Below are positions 549-23,348 of a DNA stretch of 64,000 nucleotides, in pieces; position 1 is the stretch's first letter; the number at the start of each line of letters is the position of its first letter. This DNA is from a virus (lineage: Duplodnaviria > Caudoviricetes). The stretch covers positions 158,732 to 222,731 of IMG/VR virus record IMGVR_UViG_3300035498_000530. One strand, written 5' to 3'. The notes under the pieces are model-generated. The model saw nothing but the letters and a program-made list of their open reading frames with translations, searched no databases and was not told the origin of the DNA. A program made the translations under genes and the position numbers.

Positions 549-2477
549 TTAACCGTCAACTTCGTCATCAGCTACTACATCTTCCCAAGGTCTCTTAGGA
601 CCGCCTGTAGCAATTGCTGCTTCAACAGCTTTTCTTGTTGTTTCATCAAGGTTAGCTGTGTAGTCGTTCATAGCTGGCTTACCAATAGGATCATCATTAA
701 CAAAGTCTTCTCTGTAGCCCATTGGGTTAAGAATTCTAAGACGACCCTGAACTGGCTGGTACTCTACAAACTTCCAACGCTCAAATGCATGAATAGCTGG
801 AAGAGCATAGTTAGCCATGTTTCTAATTTCATTAGAAACGTACATCTGATAATCATAGATTCTGTAGATAATTCTCTCTGAATTTCTTGGGCAGAGGATG
901 ATTATCAAGTTGTTATCGTTTGTGAGCTTATCACTTGAGATGAACTGATATACTCTGTTGCCATCTGTTGTGATAGTTCTTGTGAAGTTAAGCTGAAGAG
1001 GTCCAATGTTGCTTGGTGAGCTATATACTGGATCTGTAGGCTTAATCTTTCTGATAAGGTCAGGACGACCAATGATATTGATTGTCATGTTAGGATCTCT
1101 GATAACCTGAAGAAGGTAAGATACATGAGTATCAAGAGCATCCATGAATGTCTTGTATCTCCACTCTACATGGTCAAGAGCATAGCCTTCACGAGGTGCG
1201 AAGTCAAATGCCTTAGCGATCTTCTCTGAATCAGAAATAGTAAGGAAGCTCTCATCAAGATTTTCCTTAATCTTATCATCCTTGTAGTTACCAAGAGTGA
1301 TATTAAACAGACTCATAAGCTTAGTAAGCTGATTGATCTGATAAAGTGCACCAATATCCTTAACTTCTTCAGGAGATACTGGTGTATTGATTGGGATTGC
1401 TGGTGGGATCTCAACGAGATCTGTCTTTACTGACCAAGCAACCTGGCATGTCTTAAGCATAGCAGATGAGGTATCGATCTTAGCTGAGATCTTAACCATA
1501 GATACACCTGCAACTGTAACATCCTTTGTAGCACCTGAAACTGTGTTCTTTGTTACTGTAGAACCAGCTTCACCGATTGCTGCCATAATTGTAATCTTAT
1601 TCTTCTTCATATAACCAGAAAGAATATCATGTACCTGAGTACCATCAGGGAATGTAACATCAACAGGTTCCATAAGCTGACGATCAATGTCACCATAACC
1701 CATTGTGAAGTTCTTCTTTACATTCTTCCAAACGATTACATCTGTTTCGCCGCCTGTAGCTACCTTATCTGTCTTAGTTGACTCATCATAGTAAAGGTCA
1801 CCAGCTACAGCAGTCTTCTTAACACCAACTGCACTAATATATGTAGAGATGTCAAGGTTATCATCTGCACCTGCACCCATAAGTTCGATTACATTAAGAT
1901 CAACCTGAGGTGTAGCGAGAGAAACTGGAATATCAACATATGGAGCTGTAGAATCAATAAGATCCTTCATCTTCAACTGATCTTTCCACATATCTACTTC
2001 TTCACCATTAGGACCAATGAGAGTTCTTGTCTCCATTGAGATAGTGAACTTAGGAGAAGTAGCTACAAACTTAGGAATAGCCTTGTCAAAGATTGTGTCC
2101 ATAAGAATTCTCTTATGAATAGGGAATGTCATACCAACAACTGGGTTATAAGCAGCCATTGGTGCATATTCAAGTATAGCTTCCTTATCATTAAGGAACT
2201 GCTCGTGCATCATTTCAATATGATCATCAAGAGCTCTTGCGTCACCCATGAATGATTCTGGATCGCATGAGTTTTCAACAAAGAAGTTCTCCATTGCAGC
2301 AGATGCTGATTTCTGTCTTAAAGCTTTCTGTGGCTCAAGAAACATATCTACAGCATTTTCTGTAAGGATATTCTGAGCAAGATTTGAGAATGCCGCAGCA
2401 TATTCTCTAATAGGATCATTTCTATATCCTTCGCCAATTCTGGCGTTCTTATTAGGTCTTTCACCAATAATAGGCAT
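549..2477 (-). CDS. Major capsid protein precursor (AR9/PBS1-like jumbo phage)
   Basis: 642 aa with strong RBS and late promoter. About 100-aa propeptide ending at AILE|Y. HK97/T4 gp23-like layout. Located near the prohead protease. Confidence 0.75.
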   Translation of the reverse strand: MPIIGERPNKNARIGEGYRNDPIREYAAAFSNLAQNILTENAVDMFLEPQKALRQKSASAAMENFFVENSCDPESFMGDARALDDHIEMMHEQFLNDKEAILEYAPMAAYNPVVGMTFPIHKRILMDTIFDKAIPKFVATSPKFTISMETRTLIGPNGEEVDMWKDQLKMKDLIDSTAPYVDIPVSLATPQVDLNVIELMGAGADDNLDISTYISAVGVKKTAVAGDLYYDESTKTDKVATGGETDVIVWKNVKKNFTMGYGDIDRQLMEPVDVTFPDGTQVHDILSGYMKKNKITIMAAIGEAGSTVTKNTVSGATKDVTVAGVSMVKISAKIDTSSAMLKTCQVAWSVKTDLVEIPPAIPINTPVSPEEVKDIGALYQINQLTKLMSLFNITLGNYKDDKIKENLDESFLTISDSEKIAKAFDFAPREGYALDHVEWRYKTFMDALDTHVSYLLQVIRDPNMTINIIGRPDLIRKIKPTDPVYSSPSNIGPLQLNFTRTITTDGNRVYQFISSDKLTNDNNLIIILCPRNSERIIYRIYDYQMYVSNEIRNMANYALPAIHAFERWKFVEYQPVQGRLRILNPMGYREDFVNDDPIGKPAMNDYTANLDETTRKAVEAAIATGGPKRPWEDVVADDEVDG

Positions 2478-2544: not shown

Positions 2545-2556
2545 TATTATATTGTT
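2545..2556 (-). promoter_or_regulatory. Late promoter AACA-N6-TA (capsid gene)
   Basis: Minus strand reads AACA-ATATAA-TA, matching the AR9 late promoter consensus. Confidence 0.7.
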
Positions 2557-2590
2557 AAGTTATTAATTCTAAGAATTAAGCTTTACAGAC

Positions 2591-2631: not shown

Positions 2632-5600
2632 TTATTCATCTGGGGCTTCATCTTTATCTGTTTTTGTTTCTGGGTTTTCTTCGTCAGATTCAAAGGCAGC
2701 ACCAAGCTCTTCAAGTATAGAATTTATACTATTCAATGCAGCTAAACATTCCTGATACGTAATAGTATTCTCTATAAATGTCTTATTATCAAAATTATGA
2801 AGCATATTATAACTAATAAGCTCTTTAAGTTCTGTTATCTTACGACTCAAGAAATCCAATACAGTTTGAGTATTACTATTTCTTGGAACTTTATTGATAT
2901 CATCAGACAATCTAAGAACTGTTTCATATAAATCCATATAGTCTCTTTTGAGTCTATATTTCTTTTCCTTCATTTGTTCTGGATCTATGTCACTGAAAAG
3001 TTCTTTTTCTATATTCTTGATTTCGTCACTAAGACTTCCTTCTTCTCCCTCTTCACCGTCTTCAGGGATTTCTCCTTCTGTATCATCTCCACCATCTGGA
3101 TTTTCTTCATCAGAGTCTAATGGTTCGTCTCCACCACCAGTATCTCCTCCACCATCTCCAGTAGGAATTTCACCAGAAGTATCACCGCCAGTTTCATCAG
3201 AATCCAAAGGCTCATCACCTGCATCTCCTTCGTCACTATCAAGTGGTTCGTCTCCACCTTCATCTGAATCTAATGACTCATTATCTCCACCGGCATCATC
3301 AGTTGGCTCATCCATAGGCTCGTCTCCAGCATCGTCTGTAGGTTCATCCATTGGTTCATCTGAACCACCATCTGATGAACCACCTCCACCGGAACCTCCG
3401 GCTGTATAGCTACCATCTGGATCTGTTCCAAATCCATCATTAGTATCTTTATTAGCGTCATCAGCTACAGGATCATTATTCTTAACTTCTATTTCATTAA
3501 GAATATTATATTCCTCTTCTTTAGTAAAGAAGAATCCACCAGTTTCATGAGCATAATCAGAAGAATATTCAGATTTATCTTCTTCATCAGTACAATTATC
3601 GCAAGTCTTAAGCTGATCTAAATAATAAGATCTAAATGAATTATTAGTATCAGCAATTCTTAATATCTCATCTGCACTTATATCAAATTTGTTTATAGCA
3701 TCATATATATTCTCTGATGTAAATTTGATATTATCATTCTTTATGATATTAAAGTTCTTTATAGTATCTAAGACTCCTTCTTTGGAATCTAAAGACATAG
3801 TATTCGTATGAGGATCAGCATATTTATTTTCATTTATTCCATTCAATATATCTCTTTCTTGAGCTTTGGAGAAGAATAAACCCATGTGATCAACTCCTTC
3901 CTTTTTAACTTTAGAGTTCTTTTTAGAATCGATCTTCTTCTTAATAGGATCGTTTTCTACATTACTCTTAACTCTATCTTTTGCTATAGATAATCTATTC
4001 TTTGCTATATCTTTTCCTTTGGATACAGCATCTTTGATATTACTTACATTTCTTTCAATATTATCAAATAGCTTTGGTCTACTTTCATTATTATCTTCAG
4101 TAGATTCATTCACATTTTCATTATCTATATTTATCATTTTATATCTCCTTGAACCGATACCAAGTTTGTGAGCATATTCTAATATATGAGTGCCATTACG
4201 AGTTTCTATTCTTTCTATTACATCTTTACCGTCTTCGGCAGAATATACCAAATCAACACAAGCTTGATCTAATGCTACTGGATCTAAAGATGCAAGAATT
4301 CCTATATCTTTCATCGTAGGTTCCTCTGGATGAGAACTGCAATCACAATCTACCGACATATTATTCATTACATTTATAAATAATATTCTTCCTTCTTTAG
4401 CTGAGCATACTGATTGGGCAGCTTCAGCCATAGATTCTAAGAAAGGTATTTGTTCTCCACCTTTCCAAGTTCTTTTACTTCTTCCTGCAGTATGTATTAA
4501 TCTCTTTCCTACTTGGGAAGCAAATCCGATAGAGATATTTTTCAATGCTCCACCGAATCCTCCCATAGCATGTCCTTTAAAGTGAGATAATATAAGGAAT
4601 GAATCATAAGACTGAAATGTTTCTCCAACAAAGTTTTCAGTAAGATGATTTCCTCCTGTTACAGGTAAAGATATTTGACCATCTGAATCCATAATATCGA
4701 CGTCAGCAATATCTAAGAATCCATGATCTTGTATTACTTTTATATGCTCTTGTGTAGTATTTCGTTTTCCTTCGTAGGCAGTATTGCATTCGCATATTAT
4801 ACCATTGACTTCATCTACAACAAGTTTAATTAATTCTGGTTTCAAATAATTATTATTACCAGCTTCTCCAGTAGATAACTTAACACCTACTCTACCAGAT
4901 ATACATCCATTGTTAGATATCTTAAATATCTTTAATAGTGATTCTGGAGAAATATTTGATGTAAAGTATACTACCGAATCATCAAATCCAGAATTAGGAA
5001 TATTTCTTACTGATGATAATCTTTCATAATAGGAGTCATCCTTAGGAAACTTATCATCAAAACTTTCTTTTATAGCTTTAGGCCCTTTCCAATACCTCTT
5101 AAAATCATTCTTTTCTCCAACATGAATATCAAGTTGTTCTTCTTTATCAAAGTAGTATTCTATTTTCTTTATGATATTATTAGCTAATTCTTTTCTATCT
5201 TCTTCGTCGCAATAGTTAAAGAATCTTATAGCTTGTAATACATGTTCTTTATCATTCAAAGGATACTTTCTCTTCTTAGGAAGACCAAATTCTTTATCTG
5301 ATAATCCTTTACGATCTTTAGAAGATAAAGCTTCTTCATTTATAGTTCCATAACTCATAAATATCATAGTATCTGTTTGATCATATTCCTTCCATCCAGT
5401 TTTGTTATATAAATTTATAGCAGGAGTATTATTCTTTCTTACAGATAATTTTATAGTTTTTAGATCATTAATTGCTATCTGAAGTAACTTTGTTCCTATT
5501 CCTTTGTGTTTCATATTATCAGCTACTTCTAAAGCTTGAATCCAAATACCATCACTTTTCTTTTCTGTATTGATTAATCCAACAAATTCATTATTAGAAT

Positions 5601-6375
5601 TTATATATAAATACCCTTTAGTATTGGAATTTACTCTAATATGCCTAAGCATTTTGAATTTGCTTTTATAGATATCAATAGTTTTTTCATCAAGATTAAG
5701 TCTTTTAAAATCATTAATATTACTAGATTCATAAATTGAGTCTTCTGGAACACATGGCAAATCATTATTAAAAATAGCGTTAGGTTCTATATTACTCTTT
5801 GGTTTTCCGAATAGATTTCTATTACTTATTCTTTTTTCCATATAAGTCATATATTCTGCTCCATTCATACCATACAATTTATTATCTAATGCATTATATT
5901 CTATTAAGAAGCTTTTAGTAATCCTACTTCCAGCATCCTTATTTAAATTGTATATGATGTAATTTAAAGCATCTTTTTCTGTATTGAATTCATATACTCC
6001 TCGTTTAGGTTTCCAAGAAGATTCAAACCAATAAAATTTATTACCATACTTGAATACAATGAATGTATGTGTTGGTGTACTACCATCAGTATCTACTCCA
6101 ATATGATAATATGATTTAAACTTTATATCTGGAAAATTTCTTTTAAAGTAATATGCTTCATATGTTACATAATCCCAACATACTCCTCCTTTATATTTAT
6201 TAAACTCCTGAGGACTAAGCATTCTATAATAATTATCAAAATCTTCACGTTTAATTTCAATAATAGGATTACCATTATTAGGAATTATATATTCATACAT
6301 ATTTAACTCTTGGTTAAATCTTATGATTTCTTCTAGGCTAGTTTTACTATTAGCCTCATTAAAAAATATACCCAT
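2632..6375 (-). CDS. Multidomain head/cargo polyprotein: transglutaminase-like + GNAT + DUF6582-like + DUF362 + acidic repeats + helical C-terminus
   Basis: Cys/His/Glu triad motifs GGVCWD, THTF, WFES. GNAT motifs KHKGIGTKLL and NTPAINLY. Small domain EFGLPKKRKYPLNDKEHV. DUF362 motifs SHFKGHAMGGFGGALKN and DPVALDQAC. D/E/G-rich repeats near the C-terminus. Confidence 0.75.
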   Translation of the reverse strand: MGIFFNEANSKTSLEEIIRFNQELNMYEYIIPNNGNPIIEIKREDFDNYYRMLSPQEFNKYKGGVCWDYVTYEAYYFKRNFPDIKFKSYYHIGVDTDGSTPTHTFIVFKYGNKFYWFESSWKPKRGVYEFNTEKDALNYIIYNLNKDAGSRITKSFLIEYNALDNKLYGMNGAEYMTYMEKRISNRNLFGKPKSNIEPNAIFNNDLPCVPEDSIYESSNINDFKRLNLDEKTIDIYKSKFKMLRHIRVNSNTKGYLYINSNNEFVGLINTEKKSDGIWIQALEVADNMKHKGIGTKLLQIAINDLKTIKLSVRKNNTPAINLYNKTGWKEYDQTDTMIFMSYGTINEEALSSKDRKGLSDKEFGLPKKRKYPLNDKEHVLQAIRFFNYCDEEDRKELANNIIKKIEYYFDKEEQLDIHVGEKNDFKRYWKGPKAIKESFDDKFPKDDSYYERLSSVRNIPNSGFDDSVVYFTSNISPESLLKIFKISNNGCISGRVGVKLSTGEAGNNNYLKPELIKLVVDEVNGIICECNTAYEGKRNTTQEHIKVIQDHGFLDIADVDIMDSDGQISLPVTGGNHLTENFVGETFQSYDSFLILSHFKGHAMGGFGGALKNISIGFASQVGKRLIHTAGRSKRTWKGGEQIPFLESMAEAAQSVCSAKEGRILFINVMNNMSVDCDCSSHPEEPTMKDIGILASLDPVALDQACVDLVYSAEDGKDVIERIETRNGTHILEYAHKLGIGSRRYKMINIDNENVNESTEDNNESRPKLFDNIERNVSNIKDAVSKGKDIAKNRLSIAKDRVKSNVENDPIKKKIDSKKNSKVKKEGVDHMGLFFSKAQERDILNGINENKYADPHTNTMSLDSKEGVLDTIKNFNIIKNDNIKFTSENIYDAINKFDISADEILRIADTNNSFRSYYLDQLKTCDNCTDEEDKSEYSSDYAHETGGFFFTKEEEYNILNEIEVKNNDPVADDANKDTNDGFGTDPDGSYTAGGSGGGGSSDGGSDEPMDEPTDDAGDEPMDEPTDDAGGDNESLDSDEGGDEPLDSDEGDAGDEPLDSDETGGDTSGEIPTGDGGGDTGGGDEPLDSDEENPDGGDDTEGEIPEDGEEGEEGSLSDEIKNIEKELFSDIDPEQMKEKKYRLKRDYMDLYETVLRLSDDINKVPRNSNTQTVLDFLSRKITELKELISYNMLHNFDNKTFIENTITYQECLAALNSINSILEELGAAFESDEENPETKTDKDEAPDE
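3030..3370 (-). repeat. Coding tandem repeats (DEPMDEPTDDAG x2; DEPLDSDE-like x4) in an acidic low-complexity linker
   Basis: Read from the translation; coordinates approximate. Confidence 0.8.
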
Positions 6376-6415: not shown

Positions 6416-8782
6416 TTAATTTTTCATTGTGGTAGTTTGTTTTCCTAAGTCTGCTGTTCTTGTTGCTGCAGACTGGCCCCATTCTACTTTCATCTTATAT
6501 CTTATTCTCTGATGCTGTCTTTGTAATGCTCTTTGAGTCATATACAAATTCTTTAAAGCTTTCATATCATCTTTATCTTCAGCCATTTTAATCTGCTTTT
6601 CACAAAGATTTAATTCTACTTCAATTTCATCTAAAATAAGCTGTCTTTCTTTTGCTTGAGATGTTTTAGCACAAGCAATAGCACCAATAACACCTACAAC
6701 AGCAATTACTGGATTTACTAACCATGCTGCACCTGTTGCTAATCCCCAATGGATAACTTTAGATGCACTAGGAATCAATTGTCCTTTAATAACCGCTTCT
6801 CTATTTCCTTTCTGCATTGCACGTTCTGCAGAAGAAATAACTGTATTTACTGAAGCATCCACTTGTCTTGATAATATTTTATCTTTATCAGCAAGACTCT
6901 GTATTCCTCGCTTGAGATTCTCAGAAGCAAGTTTAAGAGAGTTAGTAATACTAAGTTCATTTACATAAGTAGTATTAGTAATATTCTCTATTACATTATA
7001 TCTCAAGTCAAGATCATTTATAACAGATTCTGTTGTACAAGAACAAGTACTCTTTTTATTACATTTACTATGTTCCAAGTCCCAGATACAAGTATTTAAT
7101 ACACTCTTTGAATAGAAATCTGTACTTTCTGCATCTTTCAATTCTTTAAGTCTACTAGAGAATACTTTATTCAATGATTCCGGATTGATTATCTCTGGTT
7201 TATTTATAGATATAGTAGTAAGAACTTCTGCTACATTATTACCAAAACCAGTAGATATTTTTGATGCTTGATTTGCTAAAGTTATATCAATAAAATTATC
7301 ATCAAGATCTATCATTCTATTGATACTTTCTTCTATACATAATACAGACTTAAGATGCTCTATTAATGATTCATCTAAGTCTTCATCATCGTCATCATCC
7401 ACAAGATTAAGATTATAATCATAATCTTCAAATTTATATACAGCATCTTCAAGAGACTTCTTATATTCTTCTGCTCTCTTGATAGCTTTTTCATCACTTA
7501 ATTTATCTATCTTCTTTTCTACTTTTTCTATTTCTTTATTATATTCAGATATCAGCTTCTTCATCTGCTTACGCTCCAAGGTAAGCTTCAATGTGAAATC
7601 TGCACATAATGCTATGAATCCTGGAATAAGACCAAAAGAAAAAGCACCAATTATCATCAATCCTCTGAGAAGACCAAGAAAATTTGGAATACCATCAATA
7701 ATATCCTGAGGGTCTTTGGTATATATCTTATATATAAGAGACTTCATAGCTGCCGGAGTCTTCTTGGGAAGCATCTTGAATTCATCAATAAGCTTATCTA
7801 CACTATTACCTATCTTGGCTTTCATATCGTCATTCTCAAGTATAGAATTAATGAAATTATCACTAAGATCTGTAATACCATAACTCATAAGCTCATTAAT
7901 AGCATCATTAGAAGTATTATATTCTGACTCGAAGATATACAAACTATTTATTTCTTTATCATCATATCCATTTACTTTAGACAAAGTAGTTTTAAGATCT
8001 TTGATATGATTTTCAGTAAGAGTTTCAGGACTCAGCATAAAATAATCTGTAACAGTTTCAAGTATAGTTTTTCTATCACAATGTATAGCATTCTTATACA
8101 ATGTATACTGTATATTCTCCAAAGCAACTTTATACTTAACCCCATAAGGAATATCATAAGTATCAATAAAGTTACATAAAGTAAATATAGTATCCTTAAC
8201 ATCATAAGAATTTTCCTGCACATACTGATTGAATGAGAATCTCTTATTAAGCTTCTTCTGATTAGAGATAACTGTACATATAGCTTCACTTATACTACAA
8301 GTATCAAGAATCTTATCAAAGCATTTTTCAATAGATTCACTCTGAGGTTTAGGTTTATTGTTTGATGGTTGTGGTTGACCAAGGGTTTTAGATGCTGCTG
8401 TTTTAGCTTTAGTAATTTCAGCTTTTACTGCAGTACCAATCTTATGTCTATTCATCTGGTCAGTACTCTTTCCGTTACGAACTTTCTTCGTAGACGGAAC
8501 AATTTCTTTAGATATTTTGTTTTCAACTTCTTCACACAGATATCTACAAGCTTCTTCTATTCTGTAGATATTTTGAGACTCTTGATTACAAATTTCAATG
8601 AATGCATGGACCTGTTCTTGAATCATTGCATTTTTGTTCTTGATCAGATTCAAATAATTAAAATAATTATACTGTGGTATGTCTGCTACAGATAAAAAAT
8701 TTGAATTATTTGTAGCTGATTCTGTTACCATATTGGGTAATGATAATTCTTTTGATAATACGTCTTTCATGTTAATTAGCAT
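6416..8782 (-). CDS. Putative virion (inner head) protein with coiled coils and hydrophobic segments
   Basis: 788 aa. Late-type promoter AACT-TAATAG-TA at 8811-8822. Several x-x-E-S sites. Upstream of the polyprotein and capsid genes. Confidence 0.5.
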   Translation of the reverse strand: MLINMKDVLSKELSLPNMVTESATNNSNFLSVADIPQYNYFNYLNLIKNKNAMIQEQVHAFIEICNQESQNIYRIEEACRYLCEEVENKISKEIVPSTKKVRNGKSTDQMNRHKIGTAVKAEITKAKTAASKTLGQPQPSNNKPKPQSESIEKCFDKILDTCSISEAICTVISNQKKLNKRFSFNQYVQENSYDVKDTIFTLCNFIDTYDIPYGVKYKVALENIQYTLYKNAIHCDRKTILETVTDYFMLSPETLTENHIKDLKTTLSKVNGYDDKEINSLYIFESEYNTSNDAINELMSYGITDLSDNFINSILENDDMKAKIGNSVDKLIDEFKMLPKKTPAAMKSLIYKIYTKDPQDIIDGIPNFLGLLRGLMIIGAFSFGLIPGFIALCADFTLKLTLERKQMKKLISEYNKEIEKVEKKIDKLSDEKAIKRAEEYKKSLEDAVYKFEDYDYNLNLVDDDDDEDLDESLIEHLKSVLCIEESINRMIDLDDNFIDITLANQASKISTGFGNNVAEVLTTISINKPEIINPESLNKVFSSRLKELKDAESTDFYSKSVLNTCIWDLEHSKCNKKSTCSCTTESVINDLDLRYNVIENITNTTYVNELSITNSLKLASENLKRGIQSLADKDKILSRQVDASVNTVISSAERAMQKGNREAVIKGQLIPSASKVIHWGLATGAAWLVNPVIAVVGVIGAIACAKTSQAKERQLILDEIEVELNLCEKQIKMAEDKDDMKALKNLYMTQRALQRQHQRIRYKMKVEWGQSAATRTADLGKQTTTMKN

Positions 8783-8898
8783 CAGGATCCACCCTTCCTT
8801 TATAATAATTTACTATTAAGTTAACCTTAAAATGTTTAGATACATATTATAATAATGATATAGATATATCAATATATAATACAAGGGAGGAACCAAAG

Positions 8899-11172: not shown

Positions 11173-12045
11173 ATGAGCAAAGCAAGTACCCCTATAGGAT
11201 ACATATTACAAGAAGAATCTTCTGTAGTTAAAAATATGAAAATAGTTGCAGAAAGCGGTAGAAGAGTTACAGCTGAAGGCATTCTTCAGACAGCAGAAGA
11301 ATTGAATAGAAATGGAAGATTCTATGAAAGAAAAGAACTTTTCCCAGAATTAACTGGTCCTAGAATAACAGAATTACTTAGTACTGGTAATCTTAAAGGT
11401 GAAGATGGTCATCCTTCTTCAAAAGAACTTACTAGACAGCAGACTATAGATCCAATGTTTACTTGTGTAAAGTATCTTAAACTTTGGACCAAAGGTGATG
11501 ATATCTGGGCTACTTTCAGAGGAGATAATACAGCAAGAGGTGAATACTTCGATCTCGATCTTAGAGATGGTGATCTTCCATCATTCTCTCTTAGAGCCTT
11601 AGGTACTATTGATAATAAAGGTGGTAAGGCTTATGTAAGAAATGTAAGAGTTATCACTTGGGATAGAGTATATTATCCATCTCATAAGAGAGCATATACT
11701 AAAGGTATTGTATCAGAATCTGGTAGTCTTTTATCTTCTAAACTTGCTGCTCCAAGGGGTGGTATAAACGAAAGTGGTATTCTTACTATAGATGGTTCAT
11801 CTAATCAGTTATATGAAACAGAATCTTCAGGTATTATAGCTCCTGTGACTAATGATTCAGTAATTAATTATATTAAGACAGAATCAGCTAATATTCATAC
11901 TATTATGAATAATTTCGATATTTTCTATGATACTATAAGCCTTACTGAAGACGGTAACTCTATTCAGATGGTAGATAAAGCTGGTAATACTATTATAGTA
12001 AGTCTTGAGAAATATATATTTGATGAGATTATGAACTATATTTAA
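11173..12045 (+). CDS. Prohead core protease (T4 gp21-like, peptidase S77)
   Basis: Motifs EGILQTAEELNRNGRFY, GEDGHP (catalytic His), SFSLRALG (catalytic Ser) and ITWDRVYYPS. Confidence 0.9.
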   Translation: MSKASTPIGYILQEESSVVKNMKIVAESGRRVTAEGILQTAEELNRNGRFYERKELFPELTGPRITELLSTGNLKGEDGHPSSKELTRQQTIDPMFTCVKYLKLWTKGDDIWATFRGDNTARGEYFDLDLRDGDLPSFSLRALGTIDNKGGKAYVRNVRVITWDRVYYPSHKRAYTKGIVSESGSLLSSKLAAPRGGINESGILTIDGSSNQLYETESSGIIAPVTNDSVINYIKTESANIHTIMNNFDIFYDTISLTEDGNSIQMVDKAGNTIIVSLEKYIFDEIMNYI

Positions 12046-22910: not shown

Positions 22911-23348
22911 ATGGGTTTATTTAATAATACCAAAACTGAAGAAAATATAATGGAAATGGAACTTCAGAATCCTAATGAACTTGCTGAAGCCATGATCCTT
23001 GACGAACTTTCATTCTTGACAGACGATCAGAAAGAAGAATTCGCTGTATCAGAAGTTTGTACAGAGCTTATTGAAGAAGGCCTTCTTAAGAGACAGTCTG
23101 TAGTAAGACTTACAAGAAATGATGACCTTTCTAGAAGAATGAAGCTTGCTGCGTTCCAGCTTGCTAAGGAAAGACAGGATCCACTCTGGTCAATGCTTGT
23201 AAAGAACAGAGTAAAAGAAAGAGCTCTTATTGGTAAAATTATGCAGAAATACCGTGGTCAGGCAGGCAAAGCTGCTAAGGTTTCTCAGAAGACTTATATC
23301 AAAGGCAAGTTGCCACTTTCAATGCTTAGACCTACAAAGATGGGCTAA
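22911..23348 (+). CDS. Hypothetical late protein (acidic N-half, basic C-half)
   Basis: Strong RBS and late promoter. Confidence 0.75.
   Translation: MGLFNNTKTEENIMEMELQNPNELAEAMILDELSFLTDDQKEEFAVSEVCTELIEEGLLKRQSVVRLTRNDDLSRRMKLAAFQLAKERQDPLWSMLVKNRVKERALIGKIMQKYRGQAGKAAKVSQKTYIKGKLPLSMLRPTKMG

What the first reader, a model, noticed from the sequence alone, without database searches (positions are those of the whole stretch)
2632..6375. Candidate capsid cargo polyprotein: unrelated enzyme domains separated by prohead-protease-type sites
Seen: four unrelated modules in one ORF beside the capsid gene. They are a papain/transglutaminase-like domain (C66, H103, E118), a GNAT (about aa 250-342), a DUF6582-like domain (about 349-410) and a DUF362 domain (about 468-750), followed by an acidic head-like region. 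Each boundary carries a hydrophobic-x-E site: FNE|A (7), IYE|S (216), INE|E (347), IKE|S (437), VNE|S (757), then INE|N and LNE|I. Established: T4 gp21-type proteases cut after (L/I)-x-E, and such a protease is encoded at 11173-12045. Inference: the phage appends enzymes to a head-core protein, packages them, frees them by maturation cleavage and possibly injects them. That would be a modular, swappable effector-delivery platform.
Basis: partly seen in the sequence, partly recalled or inferred. Interest (0 to 1): 0.88.

Follow-up and report, generated by a model that had tools for sequence, protein, structure and literature searches.

The report
Enzyme cargo fused to phage scaffold
An uncultured AR9-like giant gut phage has joined a swappable string of enzymes to the front of the acidic scaffold-like protein encoded beside its capsid gene, with head-protease-type cut sites at the joints; this looks like a natural way to load enzymes into the capsid, but no cutting, packing or injection has been measured.

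Summary
Window 2632-6375(-) is one intact 1247-aa ORF directly upstream of the major capsid gene. It carries a vasohibin/transglutaminase-like Cys-His-Glu domain, a RimI-like GNAT, a DUF6582-like module and DUF362.

The C-terminal third is new information. It is the conserved acidic, three-helix "scaffold-like" protein that all 34 related jumbo phages, and AR9 (g116), encode upstream of their capsid gene as a 195-380 aa protein.

Three close relatives form a natural series at this locus:
- no cargo (484 aa);
- a DUF5131 cargo (929 aa);
- the four-module cargo here.

Each cargo sits in frame before the ancestral start codon, which keeps its Shine-Dalgarno sequence, so a nested cargo-free short form is likely.

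The same modules recur in shuffled order in about 76 giant phage polyproteins. In one they are fused to a virion-RNA-polymerase beta subunit. Their joints carry I/V/L-x-E|S in 68% of junction windows, against 8% inside modules. This fits the Glu-specific T4 gp21-type protease encoded at 11173-12045.

Packaging, cleavage and injection are inferred, not shown. This scan has noted protease-jointed cargo polyproteins in other jumbo phages before. The scaffold fusion, the cargo series and the nested start are new here.

The parts
2632..6375 (-). Long form: 1247-aa cargo-plus-scaffold-like polyprotein (P0001)
   Evidence: Intact ORF with a strong SD (AAGGAGG) 7 nt before the ATG. The identical protein is seen on 4 contigs.
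6355..6375 (-). Motif copy 1, aa 1-7 (MGIFFNE|A): CTS-like N-terminal leader ending in hydrophobic-N-E
   Evidence: Residues 1-6 are disordered in the model. The same M-G-hydrophobic-F/Y start is found in 14 of 22 relatives' scaffold-like proteins.
5761..6354 (-). Transglutaminase/vasohibin-like Cys-His-Glu domain, aa 8-205
   Evidence: AF2 pLDDT 85. Foldseek matches VASH1/2 at E 2e-5. VIA gives Z 10.2 to VASH1, 9.7 to CPR-C4 and 8.4 to LapG. G64, C66, D68, H103 and E118 are invariant in 20 homologues.
5722..5760 (-). Linker aa 206-218 with IYE|S (E216)
   Evidence: pLDDT is below 50 over 206-225. Homologues end this domain with IFE|S, LNE|T or FYE|A.
5353..5721 (-). RimI-like GNAT acetyltransferase, aa 219-341
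   Evidence: PF00583 E 3.6e-9. TIGR01575 rimI is the best NCBIfam model, but below its cut-off. PDB 9mto RimI E 0.022.
5323..5352 (-). Junction aa 342-351 with INE|E (E347)
   Evidence: Homologous to the ...MSINE|S... junction that follows the GNAT in many polyproteins.
5086..5322 (-). DUF6582-like module a, aa 352-430
   Evidence: PF20223 at 26.4 bits (cut-off 27.3); phrog_16160 E 1.8e-5. The same module is a free 108-aa ORF in L005, lies inside the 929-aa head-cluster protein of L028, and sits at the N-terminus of virion RNAP beta in relatives.
4981..5085 (-). Linker aa 431-465 with IKE|S (E437)
   Evidence: Lies between the homology limits of DUF6582 and DUF362. The motif is listed.
4120..4980 (-). 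DUF362 domain, aa 466-752
   Evidence: PF04015 E 1.3e-44. It is 50-60% identical to the DUF362 domains of secreted or SLH bacterial proteins.
4105..4119 (-). Junction aa 753-757 with VNE|S (E757)
   Evidence: 26 of 35 phage junction clusters after DUF362 carry hydrophobic-x-E-[SATGN], against 3 of 17 in bacterial DUF362 proteins.
3886..4104 (-). Lys-rich linker aa 758-830. Its last 20 nt (3886-3905) hold an SD, AAGGAAGGAG, 8 nt before the internal ATG
   Evidence: Only 11 of 1095 internal in-frame ATGs in this genome have AGGAG/GGAGG upstream, against 62 of 104 true starts. P0096 has GAGG at the same place.
2632..3885 (-). Probable nested short form, aa 831-1247 (417 aa): the ancestral scaffold-like gene
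   Evidence: In locus L048 a free-standing 484-aa gene (P0265) starts at exactly this Met, between the same neighbours.
3829..3885 (-). Motif copy 2, aa 831-849 (MGLFFSKAQERDILNGINE|N)
   Evidence: Aligned with the N-terminus of P0265 and with the internal copy in P0096. All three have hydrophobic-x-E|S/N after it.
3592..3801 (-). DUF6582-like module b (degenerate), aa 859-928
   Evidence: Folds as a small helical domain, pLDDT 70-90. It aligns with the DUF6582-like stretch of P0096, which in turn matches module a.
3493..3540 (-). Motif copy 3, aa 946-961 (GGFFFTKEEEYNILNE|I)
   Evidence: Aligns with the N-terminal leader plus hydrophobic-x-E of all basal scaffold-like proteins. 22 of 22 have the site at residues 10-25; shuffles give 12.2 +/- 2.2.
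3037..3492 (-). Acidic, repeat-rich disordered tract, aa 962-1113
   Evidence: pLDDT 30-50. A D/E-rich repeat tract is present in all relatives.
2680..3036 (-). Conserved C-terminal three-helix domain, aa 1114-1232 (presumed prohead-core or capsid-binding part)
   Evidence: 25-73% identical to the C-termini of the syntenic 195-484 aa proteins of 36 relatives. Three long helices, pLDDT 70-80. AR9 g116 is related: hhalign E 1.6e-4, Foldseek probability 1.0.
11173..12045 (+). T4 gp21-type prohead protease (P0004), the presumed processing enzyme
   Evidence: PF03420 Peptidase_S77 at 43.8 bits (cut-off 27); phrog_207; PDB 5jbl (T4 gp21) E 3.2e-6.
549..2477 (-). Major capsid protein (P0002), with a conserved I-L-x-E near residue 40 and an invariant E103 ([IV]-[LF]-E|[YH]) just before the mature-capsid homology
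   Evidence: phrog_20655; AR9 capsid-protein match from residue 90. E103 is invariant and E40 nearly invariant in 23 sequences.
6416..8782 (-). Conserved 788-aa head-cluster protein (P0003), always upstream of the scaffold-like gene; probably co-transcribed with it
   Evidence: Syntenic 730-940 aa homologues in all relatives. Its L028 homologue carries a DUF6582-like insert.

Best explanation
P0001 is a natural cargo-scaffold fusion that works somewhat like a retroviral Gag-Pol.

The carrier. The last ~290-420 residues are this phage clade's scaffold-like head-core protein. It has a short N-terminal leader, a long acidic disordered tract and a conserved three-helix C-terminal domain, and it is encoded directly upstream of the capsid gene.

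The cargo. An accessory cassette of enzyme modules has been inserted in frame in front of the carrier's start codon. The modules are a transglutaminase/vasohibin-like Cys protease fold, a RimI-like GNAT, DUF6582 and DUF362. The insertion regenerated the leader at the new N-terminus.

Proposed steps (all inferred):
1. The mRNA gives a long cargo-bearing form from the first ATG. It probably also gives an abundant cargo-free short form from the retained SD and ATG at M831.
2. Both forms co-assemble into the prohead core through the shared C-terminal domain.
3. The T4 gp21-type, Glu-specific prohead protease (11173-12045) cuts at the I/V/L-x-E|S-type joints and at the repeated leader sites. This frees the modules inside the head and destroys the acidic scaffold part.
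4. The folded modules stay with the DNA and are probably ejected into the next host.

Shown here: the domain identities, the homology and synteny of the carrier, the cargo series, the internal SD/ATG, and the family-wide junction motif.

Inferred: translation of two forms, incorporation into proheads, cleavage, retention and injection.
For: (a) Carrier. In all 34 IMG/VR relatives the gene upstream of the capsid gene is a 195-380 aa protein built as leader, acidic repeats and a conserved C-terminal domain. That domain matches P0001 aa ~1000-1236. AR9 g116 has the same position and build.

(b) Swappable cargo.
- L048 has a 484-aa gene that starts at the Met which is internal in the other two phages.
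- L036 has 455 aa of DUF5131 cargo in front of that Met, flanked by an 18-nt direct repeat (17 of 18 identical) encoding MGLFYT.
- The window has 830 aa of different cargo at the same point.
- Capsid proteins are 85-92% identical among the three phages.

(c) Internal start. There is a strong SD 8 nt before M831. Such an SD occurs at 1% of internal ATGs genome-wide and at 60% of true starts. P0096 has an SD-like GAGG at the same place.

(d) Joints.
- Hydrophobic-x-E-[SATGN] occurs in 59 of 87 junction clusters of ~76 phage polyproteins, against 8% inside modules and 19% anywhere in the same proteins.
- Composition-matched shuffles give 18.9 +/- 3.7, with a maximum of 32 in 2000.
- The logo is P3 I>V>L, P2 N, P1 E, P1' S (40 of 59).
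- The rate is unchanged in polyproteins that lack the Cys-protease module (36/51 against 29/46).
- It is at background in bacterial DUF362 proteins (3/17).

(e) The same rule appears elsewhere in the head. All 22 basal scaffold-like proteins have hydrophobic-x-E at residues 10-25 (0 of 2000 shuffles reach this). The capsid protein has an invariant E103 in [IV]-[LF]-E just before its mature part.

(f) The protease is of the family whose characterised members all cut after Glu: S77, 5jbl; PMC5694885.

(g) The modules ride on proteins known or annotated as virion components. P0009 is DUF6582 plus DUF362 fused to the orthologue of AR9 g189, annotated as the virion RNAP beta subunit. P0028 ends in phrog_2926, 'virion structural protein'.

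(h) Linker 206-225 and residues 1-6 are disordered in the model.
Against: - There is no proteomic, structural or expression data for this uncultured phage. Packaging, cleavage and injection are all inferred.
- The refined motif also occurs inside DUF362 (E580, 585, 647, 651) and inside the C-terminal domain (E1202).
- In SPN3US and phiKZ, N-terminal extensions removed by the protease are mostly lost from the head (PMC10052503). The cargo could therefore be discarded rather than delivered.
- The scaffold role of the C-terminal domain rests on position, composition and fold only. [quoted passage not shown]
- Most other polyproteins that carry these modules lack the leader motif and the scaffold domain. 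Their route into the head, if any, is unknown.
- The genome record is only 68% complete.
Confidence: 0.58

Rival explanations
1. Self-processing polyvalent protein. The embedded transglutaminase/vasohibin-like Cys protease, not the prohead protease, cuts the joints, before or after delivery. This would resemble RNA-virus polyproteins and the peptidase-bearing polyvalent proteins of Iyer et al.
For: The domain has an intact, invariant Cys-His-Glu set. Its closest folds are real peptidases: vasohibin, CPR-C4 and LapG. From my own knowledge, vasohibin cuts next to Glu. Iyer et al. proposed autoproteolysis for polyvalent proteins (PMC5512222).
Against: The junction motif is as frequent in polyproteins without this domain (36/51) as in those with it (29/46). 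The same hydrophobic-x-E rule marks capsid and scaffold-like proteins of relatives whose genomes gave no match to this domain: G001, G002 and G005, each 93-100% complete. P1 = Glu is the hallmark of the gp21 family (PMC5694885).
Confidence: 0.1
2. The cargo acts in the producing cell or in the prohead and is not injected. The enzymes (acetyltransferase, transglutaminase-like domain, DUF362) modify head or core proteins during assembly, or are simply long propeptides. They are then degraded or expelled like other giant-phage propeptides.
For: In SPN3US nearly all cleavages remove N-terminal propeptides of up to 254 aa, which mostly leave the head (PMC10052503). The cargo lies N-terminal to the leader sites, as propeptides do.
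Against: Folded 15-35 kDa domains with intact catalytic residues are unlikely to leave through capsid pores. The cargo is dispensable and interchangeable between phages with 92% identical capsids, which fits accessory effectors better than assembly factors. The same modules sit on the virion RNAP beta subunit, which has to be ejected.
Confidence: 0.15
3. A tolerated gene fusion, or selfish cassette, with no capsid function. Accessory genes landed in frame at the 5' end of the scaffold-like gene. Only the short form, made from the internal start, matters. The long form is uncut or a by-product, and the junction motif is a linker habit of these phages.
For: The internal SD and ATG are retained. 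L048 does without any cargo. The insertion is flanked by an 18-nt direct repeat. Some related polyproteins begin with a homing-endonuclease-like domain (phrog_15137).
Against: Two different cassettes are both kept in frame without a stop over 1.4 and 2.5 kb in a 30% GC genome, and each regenerates the N-terminal leader. The ordered motif, with P3 aliphatic, P1 Glu and P1' Ser, far exceeds composition-matched shuffles. It is absent from bacterial homologues.
Confidence: 0.14
4. Assembly or annotation artefact: a chimeric contig or a missed frameshift or stop has joined separate genes.
For: The record is a metagenomic virus contig, 68% complete.
Against: The identical 1247-aa protein is on 4 contigs, up to 222 kb long. 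An independent relative from another sample has the same kind of fusion at the same junction.
Confidence: 0.02

Closest known systems
Phage T4 internal proteins IPI-III and Alt: capsid-targeting sequence (CTS) plus gp21 processing
   Same: Both have a short N-terminal leader of 7-25 aa ending in hydrophobic-x-Glu, a gp21-family (S77) protease encoded nearby, and an enzyme (Alt) that is packed into the head and injected (PMC5694885, PMC5512222). The leader here, M-G-hydrophobic-F/Y...hydrophobic-x-E, starts 14 of 22 scaffold-like proteins and several other proteins of this genome.
   Different: T4 cargo proteins are separate small genes that dock onto the gp22 core through the CTS. Here the cargo is covalently fused to the scaffold-like protein itself. 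Several enzymes share one chain, and the leader is repeated at internal joints. No sequence similarity to the T4 CTS was tested.
Polyvalent proteins of phages and conjugative elements (Iyer, Burroughs, Anand, de Souza, Aravind 2017, PMC5512222)
   Same: Two or more unrelated catalytic domains lie in one phage polypeptide, including RimI-like GNATs and peptidases. Domain order is shuffled between homologues. Delivery with the DNA is predicted in both cases.
   Different: DUF362 and scaffold fusions are not mentioned in that paper (0 occurrences), and transglutaminase- or papain-type peptidases are not named there either. The paper proposes processing by embedded metallopeptidases. Here the joints carry a Glu-specific motif that is independent of the embedded Cys protease and matches the prohead protease.
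Processed head, inner-body and ejection proteins of phiKZ, 201phi2-1 and SPN3US (proteases gp175 / gp245)
   Same: These are giant phages related to AR9. Many head proteins are cut after Glu by a gp21-like protease, the virion RNAP is packed in the head, and long N-terminal extensions carry several cut sites (PMC10052503, PMC5694885).
   Different: The motif there is A/S/G-x-E, whereas here P3 is aliphatic as in T4. The extensions there are discarded propeptides without recognisable enzymes. No scaffold counterpart is known in those phages (PMC5694885).
Nested in-frame scaffold genes (lambda C/Nu3, P2 gpO) and retroviral Gag / Gag-Pol (from my own knowledge, not tested here)
   Same: One reading frame gives a long enzyme-bearing form and a short structural form that share the C-terminal (phage) or N-terminal (Gag) assembly domain. 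A maturation protease then separates the parts.
   Different: In lambda and P2 the fused enzyme is the protease itself, not accessory enzymes. In retroviruses the ratio is set by frameshifting or readthrough, whereas here it would be set by internal initiation. There is no homology to either.
Engineered P22 scaffold-fusion nanoreactors and encapsulin cargo-loading peptides (from my own knowledge)
   Same: An enzyme is directed into an HK97-fold shell by fusion to the shell-binding scaffold part or peptide.
   Different: Those systems are man-made (P22) or use a short C-terminal peptide on separate cargo proteins (encapsulins). Neither has protease-cut joints or DNA co-packaging.

Membership tests
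Peptidase S77 (T4 gp21-type prohead protease): P0004 | Profile match above the curated cut-off | tested here: met
   PF03420 at 43.8 bits against a cut-off of 27; phrog_207 E 9e-19.
Peptidase S77 (T4 gp21-type prohead protease): P0004 | Similarity to the solved gp21 structure and presence of the catalytic His and Ser | tested here: inconclusive
   5jbl E 3.2e-6 over aa 34-175. The query has His (GHP) and Ser (FSLR) where the crystallised chain has Ala. Whether these are the catalytic positions rests on my memory of the mutant that was crystallised.
Peptidase S77 (T4 gp21-type prohead protease): P0004 | Cuts C-terminal to Glu | not testable with these tools
   Indirect only: conserved hydrophobic-x-E in the capsid protein, the scaffold-like proteins and the polyprotein joints.
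Polyvalent proteins (Iyer et al. 2017) | Two or more unrelated catalytic or effector domains in one polypeptide of a portal-terminase phage | tested here: met
   Transglutaminase-like, GNAT, DUF6582 and DUF362 modules in one ORF beside the capsid and protease genes.
Polyvalent proteins (Iyer et al. 2017) | Combinatorial shuffling of the same domains among homologues | tested here: met
   The four modules occur in at least six different orders in ~76 proteins of 850-2900 aa.
Polyvalent proteins (Iyer et al. 2017) | Packed in the capsid and transferred with the DNA | not testable with these tools
   Requires virion proteomics.
T4-type CTS-bearing head cargo | Short N-terminal leader ending at a protease site and shared by several head proteins | tested here: met
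   M-[GSA]-hydrophobic-[FY] starts 6 of 250 ORFs of the genome (4 of them with Gly, including P0001 and a phrog 'virion structural protein') and 14 of 22 scaffold-like proteins. Hydrophobic-x-E lies at residues 10-25 in 22 of 22.
T4-type CTS-bearing head cargo | The leader is necessary and sufficient for incorporation into the prohead core | not testable with these tools
   Requires fusion and packaging experiments.
Phage scaffolding / prohead-core protein (C-terminal part) | Gene directly upstream of the major capsid gene, in the head-gene cluster | tested here: met
   True in the window, in 34 IMG/VR relatives, in L036, in L048 and in AR9 (g116/g117).
Phage scaffolding / prohead-core protein (C-terminal part) | Acidic, largely disordered chain with a helical C-terminal domain | tested here: met
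   pLDDT 30-50 over 963-1113; three long helices over 1115-1232. The alignment is A3.
Phage scaffolding / prohead-core protein (C-terminal part) | Present in proheads and absent from mature virions | tested here: inconclusive
   AR9 g116 is annotated 'hypothetical protein', whereas its neighbours g112 and g115 are annotated 'virion protein'. This is an annotation, not a measurement.
Phage scaffolding / prohead-core protein (C-terminal part) | Required for, and bound to, the assembling capsid shell | not testable with these tools
   Requires co-expression and assembly experiments.
Transglutaminase-like / vasohibin-like cysteine peptidase fold (aa 8-205) | Papain-like alpha+beta fold with Cys at a helix start, and His and an acidic residue on strands | tested here: met
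   Foldseek probability 1.00, E 2e-5 to VASH1/2. VIA Z 10.2 / 9.7 / 8.4 to VASH1, CPR-C4 and LapG. C66, H103 and E118 are invariant.
GNAT (Acetyltransf_1) | Profile match above the cut-off and an acetyl-CoA loop of the type Q/R-x-x-G-x-G/A | tested here: met
   PF00583 at 37.3 bits against a cut-off of 20.7. The sequence reads H-K-G-I-G-T at aa 290-295.
DUF362 (PF04015; clan with the LarA N-terminal domain, PMC11770544) | Full-length profile match | tested here: met
   153 bits, profile positions 1-200 of 200.
DUF6582 (PF20223) | Profile match above the gathering score | tested here: inconclusive
   26.4 bits against 27.3. It is supported by phrog_16160 and by homologues that carry PF20223 in the precomputed tables.
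Nested in-frame long and short scaffold genes (lambda C/Nu3 type) | Internal SD plus ATG in frame; the short form exists as a free gene in relatives | tested here: met
Nested in-frame long and short scaffold genes (lambda C/Nu3 type) | Both products are made | not testable with these tools
   Requires ribosome profiling, a Western blot or N-terminal proteomics.

The most novel reading that the evidence does not exclude
AR9-like jumbo phages may have a general, programmable capsid-loading grammar with four elements:
- Accessory enzyme cassettes integrate in frame at the 5' end of genes for proteins bound for the head: the scaffold-like protein, the virion RNAP beta subunit and other virion proteins. 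Each integration duplicates a short leader.
- Nested initiation sets the ratio of cargo-bearing to cargo-free scaffold.
- A single joint code, I/V/L-x-E|S, lets the prohead protease release each enzyme inside the head for injection.
- The conserved acidic protein upstream of the capsid gene would then be the missing scaffold of giant phages.
Probability: 0.33. Interest if true: 0.85.

Novelty: new variant of a known kind. Interest (0 to 1): 0.72.

Why it matters
If the model is right, it matters in four ways.
1. It would show how giant phages equip their capsids with changeable sets of enzymes. The mechanism, covalent fusion to the scaffold plus protease-cut joints, is one that bioengineers invented independently for P22 and T4.
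2. It would name a candidate for the scaffold protein that has not been identified in any phiKZ/AR9-type giant phage (PMC5694885).
3. It would give a simple sequence rule, I/V/L-x-E|S at module joints, for predicting mature effector proteins in hundreds of metagenomic jumbo-phage polyproteins.
4. It would tie the computationally defined 'polyvalent proteins' to a concrete processing enzyme.

The natural series of no cargo, DUF5131 cargo and four-enzyme cargo in near-identical phages makes the idea directly testable by expressing a few genes.

Tried and rejected
- Complex prediction of the capsid protein (alignment A4) with the C-terminal domain (A3, residues 281-417) returned 'no answer'. It is not used either way.
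- A mixed alignment of fragments from all modules (A1) misaligned the N-terminal and GNAT pieces, so it was not used for folding. No full-length model was made. The linker status of E347, E437 and E757 therefore rests on homology limits only.
- A PDB sequence search found no solved DUF362 relative.
- The fold search of the C-terminal domain gave only generic three-helix bundles, best Z 10.9 to designed proteins. This is not informative about function.
- PHROGs, Pfam and NCBIfam gave no family for the C-terminal domain, for P0003, or for the three other proteins with an M-[GS]-hydrophobic-F start outside the window.
- The G-hydrophobic-F-F leader motif was sought in the other polyproteins and found only in P0001 and P0096, with one doubtful case in P0211. 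It is therefore not the general joint.
- The late-promoter pattern AAC(A/T)-N6-TA is not enriched in the window (128 found, 156 expected). There is no copy close to M831, so there is no evidence for a separate transcript of the short form.
- A second internal ATG with an SD (M747) was considered. It is most likely a coincidence of the conserved G-S-R-R-Y codons of DUF362.
- The idea that I-N-E joints are relics of TAAATG stop-start overlaps was considered and dropped. It would need compensating frame changes on both sides.
- A tblastn of the modules against the phage's own genome found no second copy of any module and no separate short scaffold gene. The record is only 68% complete.

Full report
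WHAT IS THERE

Window 2632-6375(-) is one intact ORF of 1247 aa (P0001). It has a strong Shine-Dalgarno sequence and no stop codon over 3.7 kb, in DNA of about 30% G+C. It lies between a conserved 788-aa gene (6416-8782, P0003) and the major capsid gene (549-2477, P0002). P0002 matches phrog_20655, and its only relatives among cultured phages are the capsid proteins of the AR9/PBS1 group. A T4 gp21-type prohead protease is encoded at 11173-12045 (PF03420, 43.8 bits; PDB 5jbl, E 3e-6). The window belongs to a 167-kb virus record that is 68% complete. The identical protein is on record from four contigs.

THE MODULES

- DUF362, aa 466-752, E 1e-44.
- A RimI-like GNAT, aa 219-341.
- A DUF6582-like module, aa 352-430. 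It scores just under the Pfam cut-off but is supported by phrog_16160.
- An N-terminal domain, aa 8-205. Pfam barely detects it. An AlphaFold model (pLDDT 85) places it among transglutaminase-like cysteine peptidases: vasohibin with Foldseek E 2e-5 and VIA Z 10.2, CPR-C4 with Z 9.7, and LapG with Z 8.4.

- a second, degenerate DUF6582-like module at aa 859-928;
- a disordered acidic tract at aa 962-1113;
- a conserved three-helix domain at aa 1114-1232;
- a 16-19 aa leader motif present three times, at M1, M831 and G946.

THE CARRIER

I fetched 34 related jumbo-phage loci through the capsid protein, which is 43-56% identical. In every one of them the gene directly upstream of the capsid gene is only 195-380 aa long. 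All these proteins have the same build:
- a short leader, often M-G-hydrophobic-F/Y;
- a hydrophobic-x-E site at residues 10-25;
- long D/E-rich repeats;
- a C-terminal domain that aligns with P0001 aa ~1115-1232.

All 22 distinct sequences have the hydrophobic-x-E site. Shuffled N-termini give 12.2 +/- 2.2, and 0 of 2000 shuffles reach 22.

Bacillus phage AR9 has the same arrangement. Its g116 is 213 aa, acidic, and sits directly upstream of the capsid gene g117. It is related with hhalign E 1.6e-4 and Foldseek probability 1.0. The record annotates it as 'hypothetical' while its neighbours are annotated 'virion protein'. Position, composition and fold are what one expects of a scaffolding or prohead-core protein. 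[quoted passage not shown] The C-terminal third of P0001 is thus an ancestral head-assembly protein, and the first ~830 residues are an addition.

A NATURAL CARGO SERIES

A search with the C-terminal domain alone found just two other close proteins.

P0096 is 929 aa and lies in locus L036, with the same neighbours: S77 protease, an 801-aa gene, P0096, then the capsid gene. It shares the last ~470 residues with P0001, including leader copies 2 and 3 and the DUF6582-like module b. In front of these it carries a DUF5131 domain (E 1e-34) instead of the four modules.

P0265 is 484 aa and lies in locus L048, again with the same neighbours. It starts exactly at the Met that is internal in the other two proteins.

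The capsid proteins of L036 and L048 are 92% identical, and both are 85% identical to the window's. So cargo has been gained, lost or exchanged recently at one precise point. In L036 the insert is flanked by an 18-nt direct repeat, 17 of 18 identical, that encodes MGLFYT. Each insertion therefore regenerates the leader at the new N-terminus.

The 484-aa form itself looks like an earlier round of the same process: leader, DUF6582-like module, leader, acidic tract, C-terminal domain.

A NESTED SHORT FORM

The ancestral start is still functional in appearance. AAGGAAGGAG lies 8 nt before the ATG of M831, and GAGG lies at the same spacing in P0096. In this genome only 11 of 1095 internal in-frame ATGs have AGGAG or GGAGG upstream, against 62 of 104 true starts. 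I infer that a 417-aa cargo-free form is translated along with the long form. This would solve the stoichiometry problem of a scaffold that carries 830 extra residues. It is not shown.

THE JOINTS

Within P0001 alone the site argument is weak. There are 36 hydrophobic-x-E sites and many lie inside domains. On the other hand, hydrophobic-N-E occurs exactly five times, always at a boundary: E7, 347, 757, 849 and 961.

The strong evidence is comparative. The four modules recur in shuffled order in about 76 proteins of 850-2900 aa on contigs of 220-290 kb. I projected the module ends onto these proteins and clustered the 25-aa junction windows at 50% identity. The results for hydrophobic-x-E-[SATGN] are as follows.

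| Set | Windows with the motif |
|---|---|
| Junction clusters after module ends | 59 of 87 (68%) |
| Junction clusters before module starts | 59 of 84 |
| Windows inside modules | 8% |
| Windows anywhere in the same proteins | 19% (binomial p about 1e-23) |
| Composition-matched shuffles of the junction windows | 18.9 +/- 3.7, maximum 32 in 2000 |
| Polyproteins with the Cys-protease module | 29 of 46 |
| Polyproteins without the Cys-protease module | 36 of 51 |
| Phage proteins, after DUF362 | 26 of 35 |
| Bacterial signal-peptide DUF362 proteins, after DUF362 | 3 of 17 |

The logo is P3 I>V>L, P2 N, P1 E, and P1' S in 40 of 59.

The capsid protein of the clade has an invariant Glu (E103) in [IV]-[LF]-E, just before the part that is homologous to the AR9 capsid protein. 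It also has a nearly invariant I-L-x-E at about residue 40. All characterised gp21-family proteases cut after Glu (PMC5694885, PMC10052503).

P0001's sites IYE|S, IKE|S, VNE|S and INE|N fit the family motif. INE|E and LNE|I fit only the looser form. LNE|I, however, aligns with the universal leader site of the scaffold-like proteins. The model shows residues 1-6 and 206-225 to be disordered.

OTHER CARRIERS

The modules are also attached to other proteins that are known or annotated as virion components.
- P0009 (1927 aa) is DUF6582 plus DUF362, then a VME|S joint, then an RNA polymerase beta subunit. That subunit matches AR9 g189, annotated as the virion RNAP beta subunit (E 3e-61). It gives no match to the non-virion beta genes g089 and g105.
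- Two complete relatives carry a DUF6582-like module on the same kind of subunit.
- P0028 ends in phrog_2926, 'virion structural protein'.
- The L028 homologue of P0003 contains a DUF6582-like insert.

This supports the idea that the cassettes travel into the head on proteins bound for it. It also suggests that DUF6582 may be an adaptor rather than an enzyme.

MECHANISM AND RIVALS

The reading I favour (0.58) is given under Best explanation. The long and short forms co-assemble through the shared C-terminal domain. The S77 protease cuts the joints and the leaders. The acidic scaffold part is destroyed, and the folded enzymes remain with the DNA and are probably ejected.

The rivals are:
- self-processing by the embedded Cys protease (0.10). 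The motif's independence of that domain argues against it;
- cargo that acts only during assembly, or is discarded like a propeptide (0.15);
- a tolerated or selfish in-frame insertion in which only the short form matters (0.14);
- an artefact (0.02).

What the enzymes do to the host is unknown. The GNAT is of the RimI (protein N-acetyltransferase) type. The Cys domain resembles peptidases and deamidases. DUF362 belongs to the LarA N-terminal clan (PMC11770544), and in bacteria it sits in secreted or cell-surface proteins.

COMPARISON WITH WHAT IS KNOWN

The parts are known individually:
- T4 CTS cargo and Alt;
- giant-phage head proteolysis;
- polyvalent proteins (PMC5512222, which does not mention DUF362 or scaffold fusions and does not name transglutaminase- or papain-type peptidases);
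- nested scaffold genes (lambda C/Nu3).

I found no paper that describes accessory enzymes fused to a scaffold-like protein with protease-type joints.

This scan has itself noted protease-jointed cargo polyproteins in several other jumbo phages. The general theme is therefore not unique to this window. Three things are new here: the identity of the carrier, the natural series of no cargo, one cargo and another cargo with its duplicated leader, and the retained internal start. I class the finding as a new variant of a known kind.

LIMITS

- The phage is uncultured and nothing is measured.
- The complex prediction gave no answer.
- No full-length model was obtained.
- The genome record is incomplete.

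Noticed in passing
P0009 (protein id); L045:4735-9978(-); L046:4149-9980(-): In related jumbo phages a DUF6582-like module (in P0009 together with DUF362) is fused to the N-terminus of an RNA polymerase beta subunit. P0009's polymerase part matches AR9 g189, the annotated virion RNAP beta subunit, and not the non-virion beta genes.
   Followed up: partly
window 22911-23348(+); own genome G000:C1 5409-6614(-), 6642-7913(-), 3991-5322(-) (locus L044): Four further proteins of this phage start with MGLF or MSVF, like the scaffold-like protein. Two have a Glu-Ser within the first 25 residues. The 145-aa one hits phrog_26909 'virion structural protein'; the others have no family. They may form a set of leader-tagged head proteins.
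   Followed up: partly
L028:6147-8936(+), aa 319-400: The homologue of the 788-aa head-cluster protein P0003 in one relative carries a DUF6582-like insert that is 45% identical to P0001 aa 345-431.
   Followed up: no
L005:7741-9202(+): One relative has a free 108-aa DUF6582 ORF, followed by two small ORFs that both begin MYIVEAAKNPI, just upstream of its scaffold-like gene.
   Followed up: no
L047:6041-6682(+) (AR9 g116): AR9 g116, directly upstream of the AR9 capsid gene, is an unannotated acidic protein with the same build as the carrier. It is a candidate for the unidentified scaffold of AR9/PBS1-type phages.
   Followed up: partly
P0005, P0030, P0108 (protein ids): P0005 and P0030 begin with an endonuclease domain (phrog_15137; P0030 also hits a homing-endonuclease family). 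P0108 has a similar Zn-finger-like N-terminus by eye. This hints that the cassettes may spread by homing.
   Followed up: no
P0010, P0026, P0124 (protein ids), C-terminal parts: Several polyproteins have a crotonase/ClpP-fold domain (phrog_1128, annotated 'enoyl-CoA hydratase-like') in their C-terminal part. A ClpP-like peptidase role was not examined.
   Followed up: no
window 4137-4160(-): A second internal in-frame ATG (M747) is preceded by AAGGAGA. This is probably a by-product of the conserved G-S-R-R-Y codons of DUF362.
   Followed up: partly
window 2545-2561(-) and 8811-8822(-): Matches to the AAC(A/T)-N6-TA late-promoter pattern lie just upstream of the capsid gene and of P0003, but not upstream of P0001. 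P0003 and P0001 may therefore share one transcript. The pattern itself is not enriched in the window.
   Followed up: partly
window 6416-8782(-) (P0003): The 788-aa protein shows two long hydrophobic stretches, at about aa 370-395 and 690-715, and an N-terminal M-V-T-E|S at about residue 21. It may be a processed, membrane-touching head protein.
   Followed up: no
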